In this document: one piece after another, positions 1-25,158 of the stretch | How positions within the stretch are numbered: position 1 is the stretch's first letter | Layout of the letters: each line of letters begins with the position of its first letter | Source: Escherichia phage P2_AC1 | Sequence record: NC_070903.1 | Strand: one strand, 5' to 3' | Length of the DNA: 33,349 nt | Position numbers and translations under genes: made by a program | The notes under the pieces: model-generated | The model's input: the letters and a program-made list of their open reading frames with translations, nothing else | Databases searched by the model: none | Told to the model about the DNA's origin: nothing

Positions 1-104
1 CGCCCGCTTCGTGGGGCGGTTTTAATGCAGTTGCATGAACACTCCAAGAGCGCGCCAGCACTGACGATAACTGACAATAAAAACGGCTTCTGACATATGC
101 ACAT

Positions 105-1022
105 TCATTCACAATCATGCATATTAAAGAACGGGTATGGATAGCGTCGTAAGATCTCATCTTCACTGTACCCCAAATAATCAGACATGAGTTTAATCGA
201 AGGTGGCGTTACAGGTTTCATAAGTAGAGGAAAACGTTCGTGCAAATCATTGAATTTAAGAATCCCTGAATCTTCTTGCATTACTCTTTTGTCAAACAGC
301 GATTCAGCATACAATGGCAACTCTTTGAGCAACAGATTAATATCAAGCAACAAAACATCTATCATAATCATTATTTGCTCAGTAATATCAATGTAATAAG
401 CTGCCTTATTACTACCTATAGCATTAACAATATCATCATTTTTAAAACGCATCGTAGGCAAAGGTGAACCTGTTGATTCAATAATCATTCCTCTATAGGT
501 GTCATCAAAATCATTCCTAACATTTAATGCAGCCAATAGGCTGTTAAACCTTCTTGCTATATCACTAACAGCAAAAGCATCCCCCCAGTTAGTAGTCTTT
601 GCTGTTTCTCTATTATTCCCTACTCCCTTTTGACTCAATATACAGGCCAACTCACTTAAATCTGATGATAGAGGAGCACCAGAAAAAACCACAACAGGAA
701 AAGCTAAAGCCCTCTCGATAGGATTTTCACTTATACTTACCCCACCATAATAATTCCCTTTAATTTGCAACAACGTTGTCATTGCAGAAAAGTAGTCATA
801 AATACATTTATTTACAACGCTTACCTTTCTTCTTTGTGCTTTAAGGTACTCCTGCCGATAAAACAACCTAGTTGCAATAAAGTAACTCAGCACAGAAGAT
901 ATAATTGGTAATACTACAGGCAGCACATAATCTTTTATGACATTAGTATTATTAACGCCTTTAATTGCATCAATAATATCCTCAACCTGAAGCTGTCCTA
1001 TTATATAGCTCGTATAATCCAT
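105..1022 (-). CDS. hypothetical cargo protein, N-terminal transmembrane anchor; no family recognised
   Basis: 305-aa ORF; ATG at 1020-1022 lies 2 nt after the stop of the upstream small ORF (tgaTAatg), suggesting coupling; hydrophobic helix at about res 33-55 (LPVVLPIISSVLSYFIATRLFY); strongly AT-rich DNA unlike backbone; last gene before the genome end. Confidence 0.6.
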   Translation of the reverse strand: MDYTSYIIGQLQVEDIIDAIKGVNNTNVIKDYVLPVVLPIISSVLSYFIATRLFYRQEYLKAQRRKVSVVNKCIYDYFSAMTTLLQIKGNYYGGVSISENPIERALAFPVVVFSGAPLSSDLSELACILSQKGVGNNRETAKTTNWGDAFAVSDIARRFNSLLAALNVRNDFDDTYRGMIIESTGSPLPTMRFKNDDIVNAIGSNKAAYYIDITEQIMIMIDVLLLDINLLLKELPLYAESLFDKRVMQEDSGILKFNDLHERFPLLMKPVTPPSIKLMSDYLGYSEDEILRRYPYPFFNMHDCE

Positions 1023-1024
1023 TA

Positions 1025-1213
1025 TCAGAAAGCCGTTATTGTTCTATTACAACGTTCAGTAGCAACTTTCACAGCATCACGCCCATCACTTAATTTAGGG
1101 TAAGAACCAATCTCTATAAAATATTGGACACCTCTTTCAATACAACCCTCAACTTCTTTTTTATTACTCTCATTACAACCAGCCAGCAACGCCCCCAAAA
1201 AGCCATAACACAA
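1025..1213 (-). CDS. small ORF (62 codons) with non-ATG (TTG) start, lipobox-like LLAGC near N-terminus; possibly coupled to downstream 305-aa gene
   Basis: Start codon read directly as TTG (rc of caa at 1211-1213); AAGGAG lies upstream but is better spaced for a TTG in another frame, so frame and start are uncertain. Confidence 0.3.
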   Translation of the reverse strand: MCYGFLGALLAGCNESNKKEVEGCIERGVQYFIEIGSYPKLSDGRDAVKVATERCNRTITAF

Positions 1214-1702
1214 ATCAGTTTTCTTTTCAATCCAAACTCCTTAACAAACACAATACAAAAACATATAAATATATTATTTTTCAAACTAAGTAAATCCCAG
1301 CGATTCATAAACCCTCTGTGTCAATCTGATGGGCATCTAACGCCTCGCTGTGCTTGTTGTTCAACGCTGCCATTCCAGAACGACTGGAGAGATTCCCTAT
1401 CGTCTATGTGATGCTGCAACTCAGGATTGACCGATATTATTAAACCACTCCATAAATACCTCTAACAATTCTCCCCGACCAACTCACTCAGCGTCATTTT
1501 TTCGTTGCCCATCATCTGCTGTAGACGAAGAACATTTCATGGAACGATTTTAATACTGATGCGTTCATAGTTGAATTCAGCACAATAGCCGTAAGCAGGC
1601 ATAATCTTCTAACATTAATAATACATGTGCATTCATATAACATCGACAATTTTAATGATTTTATCAAAATAAAAAATAACATACCCATTATAAACGATAT
1701 AC

Positions 1703-1725
1703 AGCCGCTGAAAAATAGCGGCTGC
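1703..1725 (-). terminator. candidate intrinsic terminator downstream of the TIR gene
   Basis: Inverted repeat cagccgc / gcggctg with 9-nt loop, about 50 nt past the TIR-gene stop; U-tract on the minus strand is interrupted (tatatcgttta), so weak. Confidence 0.35.
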
Positions 1726-1775
1726 GGCATTATAAGTTTATATATGCAAAATTATTTATGATTAGTCAAAATTGA

Positions 1776-2723
1776 TTATTCCATTTCATCCCGTTCTGCA
1801 TCCTCCTCATCCATCATGTCAATTAAATTTCTGGTCCGCAATCTAAGCGCACTATTGAACATATTGTTTGATGAAACCCCACAATAATTATCTAAGTGAG
1901 CGATTACTCTAGAACAATCCATTATCATTTTATTTAATGATTCAATTAACTCGCTCCTAGATGTTTCATCAATACCACGGCGAATAAATCTTCTTTTTAC
2001 ACGAATTAGTGAATGATGCATGGATAATAAATCAGAAGCTACAATTTTTAAAACAGTTTCTTTACGCCCTTCCCTGTTTATTATTTTGCTAACATATTCT
2101 TCTGGCAATAATGATGCTGGATCACGCAATAATTGGTGATTTGTTCGGCTAATATCCAGCAAACTTTCAACAATTTTGGAAAGATTTTGTATCTCAGAAG
2201 TCGAATCACCTTTTGTTTTTTTAGTGGAATCTTTATCTACAGGGTTAATATCTTGAATGTTATCTAACTCACGCTCTAAACTTGGCCACCATTGCTCGAA
2301 AGCTTTAGTTAAGCGTTCTTCAGTCAAAAATCCTGCTTGATTATTTATTGACAACATCAACTTCAAAATATCGTTCTTATCATCCGAACGAGTATACTGG
2401 AATTGTAATATTGGGCCTGTTATCTCAGATGGTTTAATTTTAAACAAGAAAGGACTAACCCGGCTCTTATCAACCTTTTTACCTAAAGCACCCGCCTCAA
2501 AATTTATCCACGGTGCATTAATATTATTTTTTGTAAGGCAAATAATCCCATAAGAAGAGTCATCAAGTTCCTTTGATATATCAGTCGCCCAGCGAGTGCC
2601 TTTATCAATATCTTCCGCTGATACGTACGGCTCAGCTACTTGAATAACATTCGGTATCCAATCCCGTAATACTTTTGCTATCTCCAGGCTGTCCTGACCT
2701 GACCAACTAATAAATATCTTCAT
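1776..2723 (-). CDS. TIR-domain protein (N-terminal TIR, about res 1-125) with C-terminal helical domain of unknown function; candidate NAD+-consuming defence effector/sensor
   Basis: 315-aa ORF, ATG 2721-2723 with AAGGT about 9 nt upstream; N-terminus MKIFISWSGQD matches the TIR beta-A motif (F-I-S-x-S-x-x-D, same spacing as FISYSEHD of Toll-like receptors); W72-x3-E76 (APWINFEAG) matches the TIR W-x-x-x-E spacing; AT-rich. Confidence 0.75.
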   Translation of the reverse strand: MKIFISWSGQDSLEIAKVLRDWIPNVIQVAEPYVSAEDIDKGTRWATDISKELDDSSYGIICLTKNNINAPWINFEAGALGKKVDKSRVSPFLFKIKPSEITGPILQFQYTRSDDKNDILKLMLSINNQAGFLTEERLTKAFEQWWPSLERELDNIQDINPVDKDSTKKTKGDSTSEIQNLSKIVESLLDISRTNHQLLRDPASLLPEEYVSKIINREGRKETVLKIVASDLLSMHHSLIRVKRRFIRRGIDETSRSELIESLNKMIMDCSRVIAHLDNYCGVSSNNMFNSALRLRTRNLIDMMDEEDAERDEME

Positions 2724-2934
2724 AATACCATACCTTGATTAAAAAAGATCCATATCTATGACGTCAATACCTGAGCACGCGGGGAAGTTATGCCTTATGG
2801 CAGAATGATTTCTTATTAAGCCCGTGTTTTTGCTACATGTAGCGATAGCTGGCAGTGAAAACACCCATTTCCACATGCAAAACAATGCATCTGATACATG
2901 CGGATTTACAATGTCAGCTAATCAAAAGTCATGT

Positions 2935-2964
2935 AAAAAAATCACCCCCTAAGGGGTGATTTTT
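2935..2964 (-). terminator. rho-independent terminator (bidirectional hairpin) ending the A-proximal cargo operon
   Basis: Perfect 8-bp stem atcacccc / ggggtgat with 4-nt loop (2941-2960), A6 on one side and T4 on the other; on the minus strand it directly follows the stop of the 185-aa gene and is followed by 6 U. Confidence 0.65.
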
Positions 2965-3520
2965 ATGCGTATACAACCTTTTCAACCTGAGTATCAGGAA
3001 GCAGCATTATAGCTTCCTCTAAATCTCTTCCTTTGACCCACTGTACTAAACTACTTGCTGTCTTTATGACCCTAACACAGAACCATACAGCAAGGACAAA
3101 TGGAAACATGTAAAGCAATAACATTAAGCTATTGAATAACAGTACATTTTCAAGTATCCGACCGGATTTAAACAGTACATCAACAACTTCTCTATCATCA
3201 CAGCGTTTGAAAACATCTATCTCACGCCGAATTTTCTGCCTTATTGCATGGTTTTCTGCCATACGCTTTTGAGCACGAAATTTGTTTGGCAACGTGAGTA
3301 AATGCAATCTATTGATAGCGTTATTCAATGAGTCATGCACAAGTGTTGCCGCTTGCATGGAAGTATCGGAACCTCCATCAATGATTTTCCTCCTAGCGAC
3401 ATCACGAAGCGCAAACAATTGGTTTCTATAATGAAGTCGGATGGACGGCAAAATGATTCGCTCGTAAATGAAGTGTGCTGCGCCTAAACCCAACAGCACA
3501 TAAAACAGCACTGTCAGCAT
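2963..3520 (-). CDS. hypothetical membrane protein (two predicted TM helices flanking a ~110-aa soluble region)
   Basis: 185-aa ORF with strong RBS (AGGAG 6 nt before ATG at 3518-3520); TM1 res 2-19, TM2 about res 129-150; starts 20 nt after the stop of the upstream 126-aa gene (operon); followed by the terminator. Confidence 0.7.
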   Translation of the reverse strand: MLTVLFYVLLGLGAAHFIYERIILPSIRLHYRNQLFALRDVARRKIIDGGSDTSMQAATLVHDSLNNAINRLHLLTLPNKFRAQKRMAENHAIRQKIRREIDVFKRCDDREVVDVLFKSGRILENVLLFNSLMLLLYMFPFVLAVWFCVRVIKTASSLVQWVKGRDLEEAIMLLPDTQVEKVVYA

Positions 3521-3540
3521 AATAACTCCTAAATAAACAA

Positions 3541-3921
3541 CTATTTATCACTTGTACCCAAGGCTTGAGTGGTCTGTCTTTGTTGATACTTTGTTTTCTC
3601 GTTACCGATTCTCTGTGCCTCGGAACTAAAACAGCGCCTCATGATTCGCGCATGTGCAGACCAAGCCAAACCCACTATTACCGAGATAGCCCAACCAACC
3701 AAGGAATGCTCCTTAAAGCCATCAACAATAGAGAAGGCTAAATTGGACAAGTCAGTTTTTGGTAACCTCCATGCAGCAATCATTAAAATAATACTGATGG
3801 TAATAGGTATCAACTGACCATTAGACATGGCTCTTATCATTACATCCCGCCACGCCTGAGCCCACGTAACCTTAACCTGATTTTTGTTGCCTTTGCCTTT
3901 GCCTTTGCCTTGCTTCCCCAT
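3541..3921 (-). CDS. hypothetical small 2-TM membrane protein with Gly/Lys-rich N-terminus
   Basis: 126-aa ORF, ATG at 3919-3921; two hydrophobic helices (about res 36-52 and 73-89); first gene after a ~330-bp non-coding gap downstream of A; the N-terminal (GK)n is encoded by a hexamer repeat, so the true start could be internal. Confidence 0.6.
   Translation of the reverse strand: MGKQGKGKGKGNKNQVKVTWAQAWRDVMIRAMSNGQLIPITISIILMIAAWRLPKTDLSNLAFSIVDGFKEHSLVGWAISVIVGLAWSAHARIMRRCFSSEAQRIGNEKTKYQQRQTTQALGTSDK
3886..3913. repeat. in-frame hexanucleotide tandem repeat (ctttgc x3 plus partial copies) encoding the GKGKGKG tract
   Basis: Direct reading of ttgcctttgcctttgcctttgccttgc at the 5' end of the 126-aa ORF. 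Confidence 0.5.
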
Positions 3922-4250
3922 TTTACCCAGCCGCCGGTTACTTTTGAGGGCGCAAATAGTACAACTCGCTATCGTATTCAGTCAAAAAAGCTTTTCAGAT
4001 TTTTGACAAAAGCCAGCTTAATCCTTGATTACTTCTCCTTCTCAATACAAGGTGTATAGCAAAGAGCGCCCATCAATCAAGCAAAATCTCCTTCCTTTGG
4101 CTTCATTTATCACCAAAACACAACATATAGAGTACATCTTCCCATTAAATAACTATACGAGAGTGCAACGAGGAAACATTCTAATCATAGAACAAGATCT
4201 TTAGATGCTTAACGCTGCCCCCTGTAAATAATTTTCGCAACTGGCGACGT

Positions 4251-8106: not shown

Positions 8107-8300
8107 TTCCAGCCCCTCCGGCTTTTCAGAAAGGTCAGAGCCTTTTTTAACGGACTCTGTTTTTTGGTACGGATAATGATTCCCTTGCGTCCCTTCCCGT
8201 GGGTGATGGTGAAGTCAATCGCCCTGGGGCTTTCGTTACGCAGTAACTGAGCAATACAACGCGGCTCATTCATAATCACAACCCCATCCACAAAAGCCAT
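8103..8300 (-). CDS. small early ORF between cox and B (P2 orf78 position)
   Basis: 65-codon ORF overlapping the cox 3' end and the B start; position conserved in P2 but sequence not recognised. Confidence 0.45.
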   Translation of the reverse strand: MAFVDGVVIMNEPRCIAQLLRNESPRAIDFTITHGKGRKGIIIRTKKQSPLKKALTFLKSRRGWK

Positions 8301-8563
8301 GCATCACGCTGTTCAACCGGTCGGTTATAAAACGCATCACGTACAGCGCGATTAAACTCAGGAATGAAAACCCATTTTTCACCGGCACGAGCCTTCGGTT
8401 TGCAAGGATCACGCAATTCAATAATTGGTAATTTATTTGCCTTCACCATTTCACTGACTGCTGTCTTTGGCTTCCCTAATAAATCAGCAAATTTATCCAC
8501 ATGAACCGCATCAAGCGGATACTGAATCACATAATTTTCAGCGTCCATATATGGTACCCTCAT
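8276..8563 (-). CDS. cox: Cox-like excisionase / early-operon transcriptional regulator
   Basis: First gene of the early operon, divergent from C; C-terminal KLPIIELRDP...AGEKWVFIPEFN...RDAWLLWMGL resembles P2 Cox as remembered; N-terminal part differs; true start may be the internal Met. Confidence 0.75.
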   Translation of the reverse strand: MRVPYMDAENYVIQYPLDAVHVDKFADLLGKPKTAVSEMVKANKLPIIELRDPCKPKARAGEKWVFIPEFNRAVRDAFYNRPVEQRDAWLLWMGL

Positions 8564-8684: not shown

Positions 8685-8978
8685 ATGAAATTAAGCGAAA
8701 AGATTAAGGCCTTGCGTGAGGCTGAAGGGCTAAGCCAATCAAAATTCTGTGAAATCATAGAGTTACCGCTAAGCACACTTAAAAAATATGAAGGAGGAAA
8801 CTTTGAACCCGGTGGCACAGCTTTGCTAAAAATCACTATGCATCCCACATTCCAAAAATATGCTCTATGGCTTATGACAGATAAAACCGCGCCGGACGCA
8901 GGACAAATCGCACCGGCTCTCGCGCACATTGGGCCAGAGTCAACAGAGTCCAACCACTCCGCGAAAAGGATTGGCTAA
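8685..8978 (+). CDS. C: immunity repressor C (HTH, XRE-like)
   Basis: 97-aa ORF; C-terminal QIAPALAH and YALWLMTDKTAP resemble P2 C as remembered; N-terminal helix-turn-helix region differs. Confidence 0.85.
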   Translation: MKLSEKIKALREAEGLSQSKFCEIIELPLSTLKKYEGGNFEPGGTALLKITMHPTFQKYALWLMTDKTAPDAGQIAPALAHIGPESTESNHSAKRIG

Positions 8979-9017: not shown

Positions 9018-10028
9018 ATGGTGAATACAGCGCCGGAGGGCTTTCTTATGGCAATTAAGAAGCTCGATGATGGTCGCTATGAAGTGGACATTAGACCTCG
9101 CGGTCGCGACGGAAAACGCATCCGCAGGAAATTCGAAAGAAAAGCTGAGGCACTAGCATTTGAGCGATACACAATCGCCAATGCCAGTCAGAAAGAATGG
9201 GGAGGCCAGCGAGCAGACCGCCGGACTTTGAGTGAGTTGCTGGACATCTGGTGGAAATATCACGGGCAAAACCACGAGCATGGAACAAAAGAGTTTAATC
9301 ATCTACTCAAAACCATCAGCGGCATAGGTGATATACCAGTGAGCAGGATGAGCAAAAGGGCTTTGATGGATTATCGTTCCATGCGACTACGTGATGGTAT
9401 CAGTGCCGCAACGATAAACCGTGACATGTACCGATTATCCGGCATGTTCACAAAATTAATTCAATTGGATGAATTTTCCGGGCAACACCCAATTCACGGA
9501 CTGCCGCCACTGGCGGAGGCCAACCCTGAAATGACGTTCCTGGAAAAAGCAGAAATCGAAAAACTGTTAAATGTTTTGGCTGGTGATGACTTACTTGTCG
9601 CGCTTTTATGTCTGAGCACTGGAGGAAGATGGACGGAAGTTGCCACGCTAAAACCAGCACAGATTACAAATTGCAGGGTTACCTTCCTGAAAACCAAAAA
9701 CGGTAAAAAGCGAACCGTGCCGATTTCTGAGGAACTGGAGAAAAAAGTTAAAGAGGAGGCCAGCGCCAAATTATTCAAAGTTAATTATGAGAAATTTTGC
9801 GGGATTTTACGCAGAGTGAAACCTGATATACCACCCAATCAGGCAACCCACATCCTGCGGCATACATTCGCAAGCCATTTCATGATGAATGGGGGCAATA
9901 TAATCGCACTGCAACAGATTCTGGGACATGCGAGCATTCAGCAGACGATGGCCTATGCGCACCTTGCGCCTGACTATCTGCAAAATGCCGTCGCTCTGAA
10001 TCCACTAAAAGGCGGAGTGACGTTATAA
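9018..10028 (+). CDS. int: tyrosine integrase (P2 Int type)
   Basis: ORF with MAIKKLDDGRYEVDIRPRGRDGKRIRRKF start (likely true ATG at 9048), C-terminal HxLRHTF...H...Y catalytic region; reads toward attP as in P2. Confidence 0.95.
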   Translation: MVNTAPEGFLMAIKKLDDGRYEVDIRPRGRDGKRIRRKFERKAEALAFERYTIANASQKEWGGQRADRRTLSELLDIWWKYHGQNHEHGTKEFNHLLKTISGIGDIPVSRMSKRALMDYRSMRLRDGISAATINRDMYRLSGMFTKLIQLDEFSGQHPIHGLPPLAEANPEMTFLEKAEIEKLLNVLAGDDLLVALLCLSTGGRWTEVATLKPAQITNCRVTFLKTKNGKKRTVPISEELEKKVKEEASAKLFKVNYEKFCGILRRVKPDIPPNQATHILRHTFASHFMMNGGNIIALQQILGHASIQQTMAYAHLAPDYLQNAVALNPLKGGVTL

Positions 10029-10043
10029 ATTTCCCCCTCTGAG

Positions 10044-10062
10044 TGTCCACATAGTGTCCACA
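10044..10062 (+). repeat. integrase arm-type binding site pair (TGTCCACATAGTGTCCACA)
   Basis: Tandem 8-mers 3 bp apart, immediately after the int stop. Confidence 0.55.
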
Positions 10063-10146
10063 CTCAAGAAATTTTGAAACCGCTCCAAACCCTTACAGCT
10101 TTCGATAAGTACCTGTTTTTACTTTTGATTGCATGTAAGTAATTGA

Positions 10147-10174
10147 TAAAAAAAACCCCCACATCATGTGGGGG
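10147..10174 (-). terminator. rho-independent terminator of the D-ogr late transcript inside attP
   Basis: Palindrome cccccacat-c-atgtggggg followed on the minus strand by a run of 9 U (A9 at 10147-10155 on plus). Confidence 0.6.
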
Positions 10175-10239
10175 AAGACAGGGATGGTGTCACAAAAAAG
10201 CACCTAACCTGATGATATAAATGGATTTATATCAAACGC

Positions 10240-10258
10240 TGTCCACATAGCGTCCACA
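10240..10258 (+). repeat. integrase arm-type binding site pair (TGTCCACATAGCGTCCACA)
   Basis: Direct repeat of the 10044-10062 element, 196 bp away on the other side of attP. Confidence 0.55.
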
Positions 10259-10272
10259 TCGACCATAAATAA

Positions 10273-10299
10273 AGCCCCTCAACTGAGGGGCTATTTTTG
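10273..10299 (+). terminator. rho-independent terminator (plus-strand, possibly for C-int read-through; weaker on minus)
   Basis: Stem agcccctc / gaggggct with loop aact, followed by atttttgt. Confidence 0.5.
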
Positions 10300-10302
10300 T
10301 GA

Positions 10303-10521
10303 TTACATCCACATAATTTGCTGTCCTGACGGCAACGGGTGCGGCCTTACGGCATGGACTTCTCCCGGCTTCACGATGTATCGCTGTACCGACTCATAAG
10401 TGATGAACGTGGCGCTGCAATTCACGTTCTGACACTGGTGATAACGCTCTTTTGTCGTGTCAGTGATATAGCGGCTTGTACGCGCATGTGCGGCATGCTG
10501 GCATAAAGGACAATGAAACAT
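10303..10521 (-). CDS. ogr: Ogr, zinc-finger late-gene transcription activator
   Basis: MFHCPLCQHAAHARTSRYITDTTKERYHQCQNVNCSATF... (72 aa from the internal Met; the ORF track extends upstream to 10584); C-x2-C...C-x4-C zinc motif. Confidence 0.9.
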   Translation of the reverse strand: MFHCPLCQHAAHARTSRYITDTTKERYHQCQNVNCSATFITYESVQRYIVKPGEVHAVRPHPLPSGQQIMWM

Positions 10522-10602: not shown

Positions 10603-11766
10603 TCACTCATCATCTTCTGTTTCGTACTCCACATCAGAAAGCCTGACCTCAAGCTCCAGGGACGTCGTGAAGCCGCTATTATTCAGAAAATGTGTCACCT
10701 TAGTGATTGTCCAGTCCTGCTCGTCTATGACGCGCTTAAAGCCTGACACTCTGACCGGCGTTTCCGTGTAAATATCTGCCCGACCAGTAGCCAGGCTGAT
10801 GGAGAACTCCGCAACACCCCGTTGCAGTTTATCCCACTTCGCCTGAGCGGCGCGCATGGCCTGTGCTTTCGTGGCATATACCGTGGTCAGGGCAAAAACG
10901 TTGTCAGCCTCACCGGCCATGTATTCACCTTCGCGCGCTTCCGGTACTTTTGGCTCTTTCTTCTGCGTGACCGGTTTCGCTTTCGGGTGCTCCAGTGCGC
11001 GCAGGTGTTTCTCTTTCTTTTTGCGTTTCAGTTTTACCTTCTGCTTTTGCGGCTTCGGGTCTTTGGTGTGTAACCACTTTGCCGTTACGCCTGTGTAGGC
11101 TCCACGGTCAGCAATCGCAAAATGATGACGGTCGCCGTCGCTGCGGGTGATGGTAATCTGCGGGATTTTTTTACCGCTGGCCGTCACCCCCTGCCCCGCT
11201 TTGAGAAACAGCAGTTTTCCCATTTTTACCGACACCTCACCGCCGTTGCGTTCAGCAAGACGGGTCAGGAATTTCGCATCGGACTCCTGCGACTGGTCGA
11301 TGTGCGGGATTTTAATTCCGGCCAGTGACGGAGCGACACTGGCTTCCAGCCTGTTACGGGAGGCTATCGCCTCAACAATCGCACCGAGCGTGGTGTCATG
11401 CCAGGAGCCTTCACGGCGGGAATTGAGCGTCCCGCGAAAATCTGCACTCCGGGCGCGGATGGTAACCACATCCGGCGCGCCCCGGTGTTCAACCTCATCA
11501 ACGGTAAATTTCCCTTTGCATACCAGGGCAAAACCTTTCCAGCCGATATACACCGTCAGGACAGCGCCACGAACCGGCAGCCCGACCTGCCCGTCGGCAT
11601 CGTTCAGTTCAATATCAAGCTGGTCAGCCTCAAAGCCCCGGTTATCCGTCAGGGTCATGCTCATCAGACGGTCGCTGATATTGCCGGTAATATCCCTGCT
11701 GTCGAGCATCAGCATGTAATCCGGCGTCAGCGTACTGCCTGCATCAAATGTCAGCGCATCCAGCAT
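10603..11766 (-). CDS. D: tail protein gpD
   Basis: 387-aa ORF matching P2 gpD length and position (last late gene before ogr). Confidence 0.95.
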   Translation of the reverse strand: MLDALTFDAGSTLTPDYMLMLDSRDITGNISDRLMSMTLTDNRGFEADQLDIELNDADGQVGLPVRGAVLTVYIGWKGFALVCKGKFTVDEVEHRGAPDVVTIRARSADFRGTLNSRREGSWHDTTLGAIVEAIASRNRLEASVAPSLAGIKIPHIDQSQESDAKFLTRLAERNGGEVSVKMGKLLFLKAGQGVTASGKKIPQITITRSDGDRHHFAIADRGAYTGVTAKWLHTKDPKPQKQKVKLKRKKKEKHLRALEHPKAKPVTQKKEPKVPEAREGEYMAGEADNVFALTTVYATKAQAMRAAQAKWDKLQRGVAEFSISLATGRADIYTETPVRVSGFKRVIDEQDWTITKVTHFLNNSGFTTSLELEVRLSDVEYETEDDE

Positions 11767-24905: not shown

Positions 24906-25158
24906 CGTTTTCGTCCTGACAGTGTTTAATCATTTTTACCTGGCTGGCACAGCGTGCCAGCGCGTTCTCAAGCTGCCGGATATCGGCACTTAAATCGCCG
25001 TTCGTCTGCGGGTCACTGCCCGGCATCGGGCAAAGGCTCACTTTCGGGCAGGCGTTGTGGACAATCACTGGCGTCGGTGCAGGCCGGACGCTGGTGCAAC
25101 CGGCGCACAGCATCAGGCAGGTCAGCGCCGTACCAGCGGCGGAAATCTTCGTTTTCAT
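24868..25158 (-). CDS. lysC: LysC, outer-membrane lipoprotein spanin (Rz1-like), embedded in the +1 frame of lysB
   Basis: From the internal Met: MKTKISAAGTALTCLMLCAGC with lipobox LCAGC; the ORF track shows a longer 135-aa frame. Confidence 0.7.
   Translation of the reverse strand: MKTKISAAGTALTCLMLCAGCTSVRPAPTPVIVHNACPKVSLCPMPGSDPQTNGDLSADIRQLENALARCASQVKMIKHCQDENDAQTRQPAQGAD

What the first reader, a model, noticed from the sequence alone, without database searches (positions are those of the whole stretch)
10029..10302. attP with TGTGGACA-type arm repeats but a non-P2 core: integration specificity may differ from P2
Two tandem pairs of TGTCCACA-like 8-mers flank a ~180-bp segment that contains a strong terminator hairpin (10156-10174), while the integrase is clearly P2-type. 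I could not find the P2 attP core as I remember it within this segment, suggesting a different chromosomal target. The ogr terminator being embedded in attP reproduces the P2 arrangement in which integration separates late-operon termination signals.
Basis: partly seen in the sequence, partly recalled or inferred. Interest (0 to 1): 0.4.

Follow-up and report, generated by a model that had tools for sequence, protein, structure and literature searches.

The report
Known Wphi-type phage attachment site

Summary
TGTCCACA-type repeats sit in two tandem pairs (10044/10055 and 10240/10251) around a 177-bp segment between int and ogr, and the P2 27-bp core is absent.

The module is already known. 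Int is 98-99% identical to the Wphi and L-413C integrases and 51% to P2 Int. The attP is 97-99% identical to L-413C, R18C and HQ103.

Comparison with 5,426 complete E. coli genomes defines a 47-bp core at 10145-10191. Every genome carries it, 23 nt downstream of the cpxP stop codon and 78 nt upstream of fieF. About 800 genomes carry a prophage there, with attP split exactly at this core.

The hairpin at 10156-10174 is not the ogr terminator. It is a phage-borne copy of the host cpxP terminator, the 3' end of the CpxQ small RNA. The ogr terminator annotated in P2 corresponds to 10273-10292, outside the arm repeats.

Natural variants place strand exchange to the right of 10164, probably within 10170-10189. 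The core therefore runs from the crossover to the 3' end of CpxQ, as in phages that integrate into tRNA genes.

Novelty: already known. Interest: low.

The parts
9048..10028 (+). int, a tyrosine integrase of 326 aa counted from MAIKK. The mechanical ORF starts at 9018.
   Evidence: ORF; 99% identical to L-413C Int, 98% to Wphi Int, 51% to P2 Int; identity to P2 Int is 71% for residues 1-55 (arm-binding domain) but 29% for residues 56-110 (core-binding region).
10044..10062 (.). P' arm: two direct Int arm-type repeats, TGTCCACA at 10044 and 10055 (TGTGGACA on the minus strand), phased 11 bp apart.
   Evidence: Aligns column for column with the P2 repeats annotated as 'Int P' arm'. Published consensus is tgTGGaCa (PMC3448106).
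10063..10135 (.). Presumed Cox (excision directionality factor) binding region, between the P' arm and the core.
   Evidence: Same position as the annotated P2 Cox footprint. This is where the window and L-413C differ from Wphi, in step with Cox identity: 98% to L-413C, 81% to Wphi, 41% to P2. No binding data exist, and P2 cox-boxes do not match well.
10136..10148 (-). Perfect IHF consensus (TATCAATTACTTA = WATCAANNNNTTR), overlapping the left edge of the core.
   Evidence: This is a consensus match only. There is no annotated P2 counterpart on this side of the core.
10145..10191 (.). 47-bp core, identical between attP and attB: GATAAAAAAAACCCCCACATCATGTGGGGGAAGACAGGGATGGTGTC.
   Evidence: query positions 117-163 match in 5426 of 5426 E. 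coli genomes. attL matches query 1-163 and attR matches query 117-274. One search aligns attP, attB, attL and attR; the core is identical in Wphi and L-413C.
10156..10174 (-). Hairpin followed by T8 (T-run at 10148-10155): a copy of the host cpxP intrinsic terminator, which is the 3' end of the CpxQ sRNA.
   Evidence: In hosts the core begins 23 nt after the cpxP stop codon on the cpxP strand. CpxQ is about 60 nt and spans almost the whole cpxP 3' UTR (PMC9438474).
10170..10189 (.). Interval inferred to contain the strand-exchange (overlap) region. It includes the inverted repeat AGACA-GGGATGG-TGTC (10175-10190).
   Evidence: Host T/G SNP at 10164: the G allele is found in attR in 50 lysogens, never in attL, and never in 40 phage attP records. 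A related prophage in strain AR_0118 carries its own alleles at 10156, 10161 and 10169 in attL only, and its identity with the host ends at 10189. This is inference from natural variants, not a biochemical mapping.
10205..10217 (-). IHF-like site (TATCATCAGGTTA, 1 mismatch) between the core and the P arm.
   Evidence: Lies in the stretch that aligns with the annotated P2 IHF site.
10240..10258 (.). P arm: two direct Int arm-type repeats, TGTCCACA at 10240 and CGTCCACA at 10251.
   Evidence: Aligns with the P2 'Int P arm'.
10273..10292 (.). Bidirectional hairpin: the real ogr / late-operon terminator. On the minus strand it reads AGCCCCTCAGTTGAGGGGCT followed by TTATTTAT.
   Evidence: One search finds it on both strands.: -17.7 kcal/mol (minus strand) and -20.8 kcal/mol (plus strand), z-scores -4.3 and -6.1. 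Homologous to the P2 feature annotated 'rho-independent terminator for ogr transcript and F operon'.
10303..10521 (-). ogr, the late-gene activator (72 aa from MFHCPLCQ).
   Evidence: A 219-nt ogrK is annotated at the same place in lysogens.
8276..8563 (-). cox (excisionase and repressor of Pc), the presumed partner of the 10063-10135 region.
8685..8978 (+). C immunity repressor, L-413C type.
   Evidence: 100% identical to L-413C C, 56% to Wphi C, 43% to P2 C.

Best explanation
Window 10029-10302 is the attP of a P2-like (Peduovirus) phage that carries the Wphi/L-413C integration module.

How it works. Int is a heterobivalent tyrosine recombinase. Its N-terminal domain binds the four TGTGGACA-type arm repeats (P' arm at 10044-10062, P arm at 10240-10258). 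These repeats and that domain are shared with P2. Its diverged core-binding and catalytic domains act on a 47-bp core (10145-10191) that is identical to an attB present in all E. coli genomes, between cpxP and fieF.

What the core is. The core is a phage-borne copy of the 3' 44 nt of the cpxP 3' UTR, meaning most of the CpxQ sRNA including its terminator hairpin and U-run, plus 3 further nucleotides.

Where exchange occurs. Strand exchange takes place near the right end of the core, right of 10164 and probably within 10170-10189. After integration, attL is int-P'-core-cpxP. This junction rebuilds an intact cpxP 3' end whose terminator is phage-derived. The displaced host copy ends up in attR, which is fieF-core-P-ogr.

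Accessory sites. IHF and Cox sites are expected at the P2-homologous positions: IHF between the core and the P arm, Cox between the core and the P' arm.

The ogr terminator is the separate hairpin at 10273-10292, outside the arm repeats.

Shown here: the anatomy, the identity of attB, the junction structure, and the allele segregation. Inferred: actual protein binding and the exact overlap region.
For: - Int is 99% identical to L-413C Int and 98% to Wphi Int.
- attP is 97-99% identical to R18C, HQ103 and L-413C, and 88% to Wphi.
- The 47-bp core is present in 5426 of 5426 E. coli genomes. attL covers query 1-163 and attR covers query 117-274.
- The host context is cpxP on one side and fieF on the other.
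- 792 genomes carry attL and 815 carry attR.
- The annotated P2 attP has the same order of parts, and the arm repeats, the IHF stretch and the ogr terminator all align with it.
- Against P2 Int, the N-terminal domain is 71% identical while the core-binding segment is 29%.
- Allele segregation at 10164 and in the AR_0118 prophage places the crossover.
- Literature: the P2-type arm consensus is tgTGGaCa, and the L-413C core is identical to the Wphi core (PMC3448106). The Wphi1 prophage sits at cpxP-fieF (PMC3032704). CpxQ is the cpxP 3' UTR (PMC9438474, PMC4817254).
Against: - No binding or recombination data exist for this exact sequence.
- The Cox region is only 88%-level similar to the experimentally studied Wphi. 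P2 cox-boxes are not recognisable here.
- The best IHF consensus (10136-10148) lies on the opposite side of the core from P2's annotated IHF site.
- The crossover mapping rests on genomes that may share only a few independent integration events. At least two kinds are seen: a 2-kb remnant and a 31-kb prophage.
- Part of the mapping rests on a prophage whose Int is only 67% identical to the window's.
Confidence: 0.93

Rival explanations
1. One reading: the central hairpin (10156-10174) is the ogr / late-operon terminator embedded inside attP, as supposedly in P2, so that integration separates the late-operon termination signals.
For: The hairpin plus T8 is on the same strand as ogr and lies downstream of it. 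In the free phage it could act as a second terminator behind the first.
Against: The hairpin lies within the 47 bp found in every E. coli genome, 23 nt after the cpxP stop codon, with or without a prophage. In P2 the annotated ogr/F-operon terminator lies outside the P arm, and its homologue here is 10273-10292. The P2 core contains no such ogr terminator.
Confidence: 0.04
2. This is a P2-specificity attP whose core has merely drifted, so integration still occurs at P2 locI (the cyaR 3' end).
For: The arm repeats, the IHF stretch and the ogr terminator are homologous to P2's.
Against: The P2 27-mer has no match at up to 3 mismatches. The Int core-binding region is 29-45% identical to P2's. About 800 prophages with these arms sit at cpxP-fieF.
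Confidence: 0.01
3. The attP and attB assignment is right, but strand exchange occurs in the loop of the big hairpin (around 10161-10168), using the perfect 9-bp inverted repeat CCCCCACAT/ATGTGGGGG as the Int core sites, rather than in 10170-10189.
For: This is the strongest dyad symmetry in the core. The number of independent integration events behind the SNP pattern is unknown.
Against: The G allele at 10164 is seen in attR in 50 lysogens and never in attL, for either arm type. No phage attP carries G. An overlap-region SNP should give mixed outcomes or block recombination. In AR_0118, phage-specific alleles up to 10169 all stay in attL.
Confidence: 0.1

Closest known systems
attP/Int of phage L-413C (also R18C, HQ103, P24B2)
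   Same: Int is 99% identical and Cox 98%. The C repressor is 100% identical. attP is 97-99% identical over all 274 bp, with the same core, arm repeats and Cox-side region.
   Different: A few point differences only. The rest of the genome is a different mosaic, about 96% identical over about 75%, with a different cargo region at 1-4250.
attP/Int of coliphage Wphi (integration site cpxP-fieF)
   Same: Int is 98% identical. The 47-bp core, the arm repeats and the P-arm side are identical. The host site is the same (PMC3032704, PMC3448106).
   Different: The stretch between the P' arm and the core (about 10063-10140) is diverged. Cox is 81% identical and C only 56%, so immunity differs and Cox-site details probably differ too.
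Phage P2 attP (locI, 27-bp core at the 3' end of cyaR)
   Same: The order of parts is the same: ogr, terminator, P arm, IHF, core, Cox, P' arm, int. The TGTGGACA arm repeats have the same 11-bp phasing. The ogr terminator is homologous. The Int N-terminal domain is conserved.
   Different: The core sequence and host target differ. Int is 51% identical overall and 29% in part of the core-binding region. The host RNA 3' end carried in the core points towards the int side here, whereas the P2 core's T-run points towards the ogr side. That the P2 core is the cyaR 3' end is my own knowledge, supported only by the 'cyaR RNA' row for P2-type prophages in the PMC3032704 table.
tRNA/tmRNA-type attachment sites of tyrosine integrases (e.g. 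phage 186, HP1)
   Same: The block of attP-attB identity runs from the crossover to the 3' end of a small structured RNA gene. The phage therefore restores the gene it splits. The candidate crossover lies in a 5-bp-stem / 7-nt-loop element.
   Different: The target is the 3' UTR-derived sRNA CpxQ, not a tRNA. That the crossover lies in that stem-loop is inferred, not shown.

Membership tests
P2-type attP (heterobivalent Int with P2-type arm sites) | At least two direct repeats matching tgTGGaCa on each side of the core | tested here: met
   repeats at 10044, 10055, 10240 and 10251, phased 11 bp apart. They align with the annotated P2 P and P' arm sites. Consensus from PMC3448106.
P2-type attP (heterobivalent Int with P2-type arm sites) | Located between int and ogr, next to a P2-family tyrosine integrase whose N-terminal arm-binding domain is conserved | tested here: met
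   (gene order); residues 1-55 are 71% identical to P2 Int, against 51% overall.
P2-type attP (heterobivalent Int with P2-type arm sites) | Core identical to a bacterial attB, with prophages flanked by attL and attR that split attP at the core | tested here: met
   792 genomes carry attL and 815 carry attR.
P2-type attP (heterobivalent Int with P2-type arm sites) | IHF site between the P arm and the core; Cox sites between the core and the P' arm | tested here: inconclusive
   An IHF-like site with 1 mismatch lies at 10205-10217, the P2-homologous position, and a perfect consensus lies at 10136-10148. The Cox side co-varies with Cox type. Actual binding is not testable with these tools.
P2 locI specificity | The 27-bp core AAAAAATAAGCCCGTGTAAGGGAGATT | tested here: not met
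   no match at up to 3 mismatches. The 27-mer was verified in the P2 record.
Wphi/L-413C integration specificity (cpxP-fieF) | Int near-identical to Wphi and L-413C Int | tested here: met
   98% and 99% identity.
Wphi/L-413C integration specificity (cpxP-fieF) | Core identical to the Wphi and L-413C core | tested here: met
   all 47 bp are identical in the three phages. PMC3448106 states that the L-413C core is identical to the Wphi core.
Wphi/L-413C integration specificity (cpxP-fieF) | Prophages with these arms located between cpxP and fieF | tested here: met
   PMC3032704 lists 'cpxP-fieF: Wphi1 (P2)'.
ogr / F-operon intrinsic terminator (as a label for hairpin 10156-10174) | Homologous to the terminator annotated immediately downstream of ogr in P2 | tested here: not met
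   The P2 terminator (L008 666-689) aligns with window 10273-10292, not with 10156-10174.
CpxQ sRNA / cpxP 3' UTR (for the core) | Sequence identity with the region directly downstream of the cpxP stop codon, on the cpxP strand, ending in its terminator | tested here: met
   CpxQ is about 60 nt and spans almost the whole 3' UTR (PMC9438474). Only the 3' 44 nt are present in the phage.
CpxQ sRNA / cpxP 3' UTR (for the core) | Match to a curated Rfam model | tested here: inconclusive
   No CpxQ-named family was hit. Hrs1 (RF02628) matches on the opposite strand below its gathering score of 56.4 bits: 31.8 bits in the window and 44.5 bits on a real attB.

The most novel reading that the evidence does not exclude
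The Wphi-type integrase crosses over inside the first small stem-loop of CpxQ (AGACA-GGGATGG-TGTCT, a 5-bp stem with a 7-nt loop, shaped like an anticodon arm). Every lysogen would then express a chimeric CpxQ whose seed-proximal part is host-derived and whose terminator hairpin is phage-derived. Related prophages that carry variant hairpins, such as CCCCTCATCATGAGGGG in strain AR_0118, would rewrite the 3' end of a host envelope-stress sRNA and might alter its stability or Hfq binding. I found no paper in the searched library that links CpxQ to prophage integration.
Probability: 0.3. Interest if true: 0.4.

Novelty: already known. Interest (0 to 1): 0.15.

Why it matters
The main value is correct annotation. 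This phage integrates at cpxP-fieF, not at the P2 site, and the central hairpin is host-derived rather than an ogr terminator.

There is also a modest biological point. The site lies in the 3' UTR-derived sRNA CpxQ of the Cpx envelope-stress response, and roughly 15% of complete E. coli genomes carry a prophage or remnant there. In those strains the CpxQ terminator is supplied by the phage. This is a testable case of a phage restoring, and sometimes altering, a regulatory RNA. The attP/Int system itself is not new.

Tried and rejected
- I searched the window for the P2 27-bp core at up to 3 mismatches and found none.
- The Rfam scan found no family above its gathering score. The only notable hit was Hrs1, sub-threshold and on the strand opposite to cpxP.
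- The P2 cox-box consensus TTAAA(G/C)NC(A/C) gave no convincing array in 10063-10144. This is expected, because this Cox is only 41% identical to P2 Cox. Words shared between the C-cox switch region and attP gave nothing useful.
- I scanned one representative genome per species for the attL/attP junction word. There was a single hit, a 32.7-kb contig of Escherichia sp. MOD1-EC7003, so it gave no view of host range.
- The papers that first mapped the Wphi site and its Cox/Int binding could not be read. Karlsson et al. 2006 (PMC1482927) is not held. I did not look up Ahlgren-Berg et al. 2009. Statements about Wphi footprints are therefore not used.
- I considered the hairpin loop as the crossover point and rejected it because of the allele segregation.

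Full report
**What is in the sequence**

The window is a P2-like (Peduovirus) phage genome, read in the opposite orientation to the P2 map. Around the finding the genes run as follows:

| Gene | Coordinates | Strand |
|---|---|---|
| cox | 8276-8563 | - |
| C | 8685-8978 | + |
| int | 9018/9048-10028 | + |
| intergenic segment (the finding) | 10029-10302 | |
| ogr | 10303-10521 | - |
| D | 10603-11766 | - |

Exact TGTCCACA occurs at 10044, 10055 and 10240. The only other copy in 33 kb is unrelated, at 25056 (4 found, 1.27 expected). A fourth, one-mismatch copy (CGTCCACA) sits at 10251. The two pairs are each phased 11 bp apart, all in one orientation, and enclose 177 bp. A hairpin with 8 pairs followed by T8 lies at 10156-10174 on the minus strand.

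**Which phage module it is**

| Protein | L-413C | Wphi | P2 |
|---|---|---|---|
| Int | 99% | 98% | 51% |
| Cox | 98% | 81% | 41% |
| C | 100% | 56% | 43% |

- The 274-bp segment is 97-99% identical to R18C, HQ103, P24B2 and L-413C, and 88% to Wphi.
- Against P2 Int, residues 1-55 (the arm-binding domain) are 71% identical, while residues 56-110 are 29%. This matches the published picture: P2-type integrases share arm recognition (consensus tgTGGaCa) and differ in the core-binding domain (PMC3448106).

**Comparison with the annotated P2 attP**

The P2 RefSeq record annotates these features in order:
1. ogr
2. 'rho-independent terminator for ogr transcript and F operon'
3. Int P arm
4. IHF
5. 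attP core (27 bp)
6. Cox
7. Int P' arm, overlapping the end of int

In the alignment:
- Both arm-repeat pairs align with P2.
- An A/T-rich stretch at the P2 IHF site aligns.
- The ogr terminator (window 10273-10292) aligns.
- The core and the Cox side are replaced.

The P2 27-mer is absent from the window at up to 3 mismatches. I checked that 27-mer against the P2 record. The statement that the central hairpin is the ogr terminator is wrong. The ogr terminator is the other hairpin, outside the arm repeats.

**Defining the core and the target**

I searched the 274 bp against 5,426 complete E. coli genomes.
- Every genome contains query positions 117-163, which is window 10145-10191 (47 bp).
- Lysogens contain query 1-163 at one place and 117-274 at another.
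- A four-way alignment of attP, attB, attL and attR shows identity limited to GATAAAAAAAACCCCCACATCATGTGGGGGAAGACAGGGATGGTGTC.
- In unoccupied genomes the 47 bp lie 23 nt downstream of the cpxP stop codon, on the cpxP strand, and 78 nt upstream of the fieF start.
- In lysogens the int side joins cpxP (attL) and the ogr side joins fieF (attR).
- 792 genomes have attL and 815 have attR. Some of these are 2-kb remnants consisting of ogr, a truncated C and int.

This is the known Wphi site. It is listed as 'cpxP-fieF: Wphi1 (P2)' in the E. coli W genome paper (PMC3032704). The L-413C core was reported as identical to the Wphi core (PMC3448106).

**What the hairpin is**

The core contains the cpxP intrinsic terminator. 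The cpxP 3' UTR is processed into the roughly 60-nt Hfq-dependent sRNA CpxQ, which spans almost the whole UTR (PMC9438474, PMC4817254). The phage core therefore carries the 3' 44 nt of CpxQ plus 3 further nucleotides.

No Rfam family matches on the CpxQ strand. Hrs1 (RF02628) matches the opposite strand below threshold, with 31.8 bits in the window and 44.5 bits on a real attB. My reading is that the Hrs1 model is built on the strand opposite to the cpxP 3' UTR/CpxQ.

**Where strand exchange happens (inference from natural variants)**

Hosts are polymorphic at the position equivalent to window 10164, in the hairpin loop: T or G. K-12 has G. The evidence from this SNP is:
- About 898 unoccupied genomes carry G.
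- None of 40 phage attP records carries G.
- Among lysogens, 50 have G in attR at 100% identity.
- No lysogen has G in attL, whether the arm next to the core is the L-413C type or the Wphi type.
- In ECCWS199 the two junctions were read directly: attR has G and attL has T.
- H9Ecoli, which carries a full-length prophage of about 31 kb, shows the same pattern.

Position 10164 is therefore inherited with the left-hand partner, and exchange occurs to its right.

A second, independent case comes from strain AR_0118.
- It carries a different P2-like prophage at the same site. Its Int is 67% identical and its arm repeats read TGTCTACA.
- Its own core variants, at positions equivalent to 10156, 10161 and 10169, give the compensated stem CCCCTCATCATGAGGGG. 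These variants are found only in attL, while attR has the host alleles.
- Its identity with the host ends at 10189.

Together these cases suggest that exchange lies within 10170-10189. That interval contains the inverted repeat AGACA-GGGATGG-TGTC, which is the 5-bp-stem / 7-nt-loop first hairpin of CpxQ.

The 47-bp identity then runs from the crossover to the 3' end of the RNA, as in tRNA-type att sites. The lysogen's cpxP/CpxQ terminator is phage-derived.

Caveats:
- The number of independent integration events is unknown.
- The second case uses a diverged integrase.
- The raw frequency of lysogeny is about three times lower in G hosts (about 5% against 17%). This figure is confounded by phylogeny.

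**Accessory sites**
- An IHF-like site with 1 mismatch lies at 10205-10217, the P2-homologous position.
- A perfect IHF consensus lies at 10136-10148, on the other side of the core.
- The stretch 10063-10135 is where the window and L-413C differ from Wphi, in step with their Cox proteins. This fits a Cox-binding region.
- P2 cox-boxes are not recognisable there.
- None of this can be tested for binding with these tools.

**Verdict**

The inference of a non-P2 target is also right. The target and module are already described (Wphi/L-413C, cpxP-fieF), and the hairpin interpretation is wrong.

The only modestly new points are the explicit link of the core to CpxQ and the variant-based placement of the crossover. 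I found no open-access paper connecting CpxQ with prophage integration, but the primary Wphi papers could not be read.

Noticed in passing
window 1-4250 (ORFs 1776-2723, 2963-3520 and 3541-3921, all on the minus strand; also 105-1022): This stretch has no match in the closest Peduovirus genomes. It encodes three proteins that match PADLOC candidate-defence models TIR-TM (2.7e-118), 1TM-TIR (2.7e-75) and 2TM-TIR (6.9e-58). One of them also has a Pfam TIR_2 domain. It looks like anti-phage defence cargo in a P2 variable hotspot. The 305-aa ORF at 105-1022 has no hit.
   Followed up: partly
L022 (E. coli AR_0118, NZ_CP020048.1 2402215-2433390): A different P2-like prophage occupies the same cpxP-fieF site. 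Its Int is 67% identical and its arm repeats read TGTCTACA. It carries a variant copy of the CpxQ terminator with compensatory stem changes (CCCCTCATCATGAGGGG), so this lysogen's cpxP has a different terminator hairpin.
   Followed up: partly
L003 2504-2576 (attB of UPEC 536) and window 10148-10214: Rfam family Hrs1 (RF02628, 'Hfq-regulated sRNA 1') matches the cpxP 3' UTR region on the strand opposite to cpxP, with 44.5 bits against a gathering score of 56.4. Read in reverse complement, the consensus looks like CpxQ. The family may model CpxQ homologues in the wrong orientation.
   Followed up: partly
L016 (E. coli ECCWS199, NZ_CP032237.1 4512366-4514333); same layout in PSS-10: Some genomes keep only a 2-kb remnant at the site, consisting of ogrK, a truncated C gene and an intact int between fieF and cpxP. 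It resembles the ogrK remnant of P2 at cyaR in K-12.
   Followed up: no
E. coli 1332KP, NZ_CM173849.1 273981-274182 (hit H81/H121): One genome has a place that covers attP positions 1-202 at 92% identity, running across the core into the P-arm side, and it has three places in total. This may be an internal attP-like junction of tandem or hybrid P2-like prophages.
   Followed up: no
window 10273-10292: The ogr terminator hairpin scores as a terminator on both strands. It could also stop transcription coming from int and attP towards ogr.
   Followed up: no
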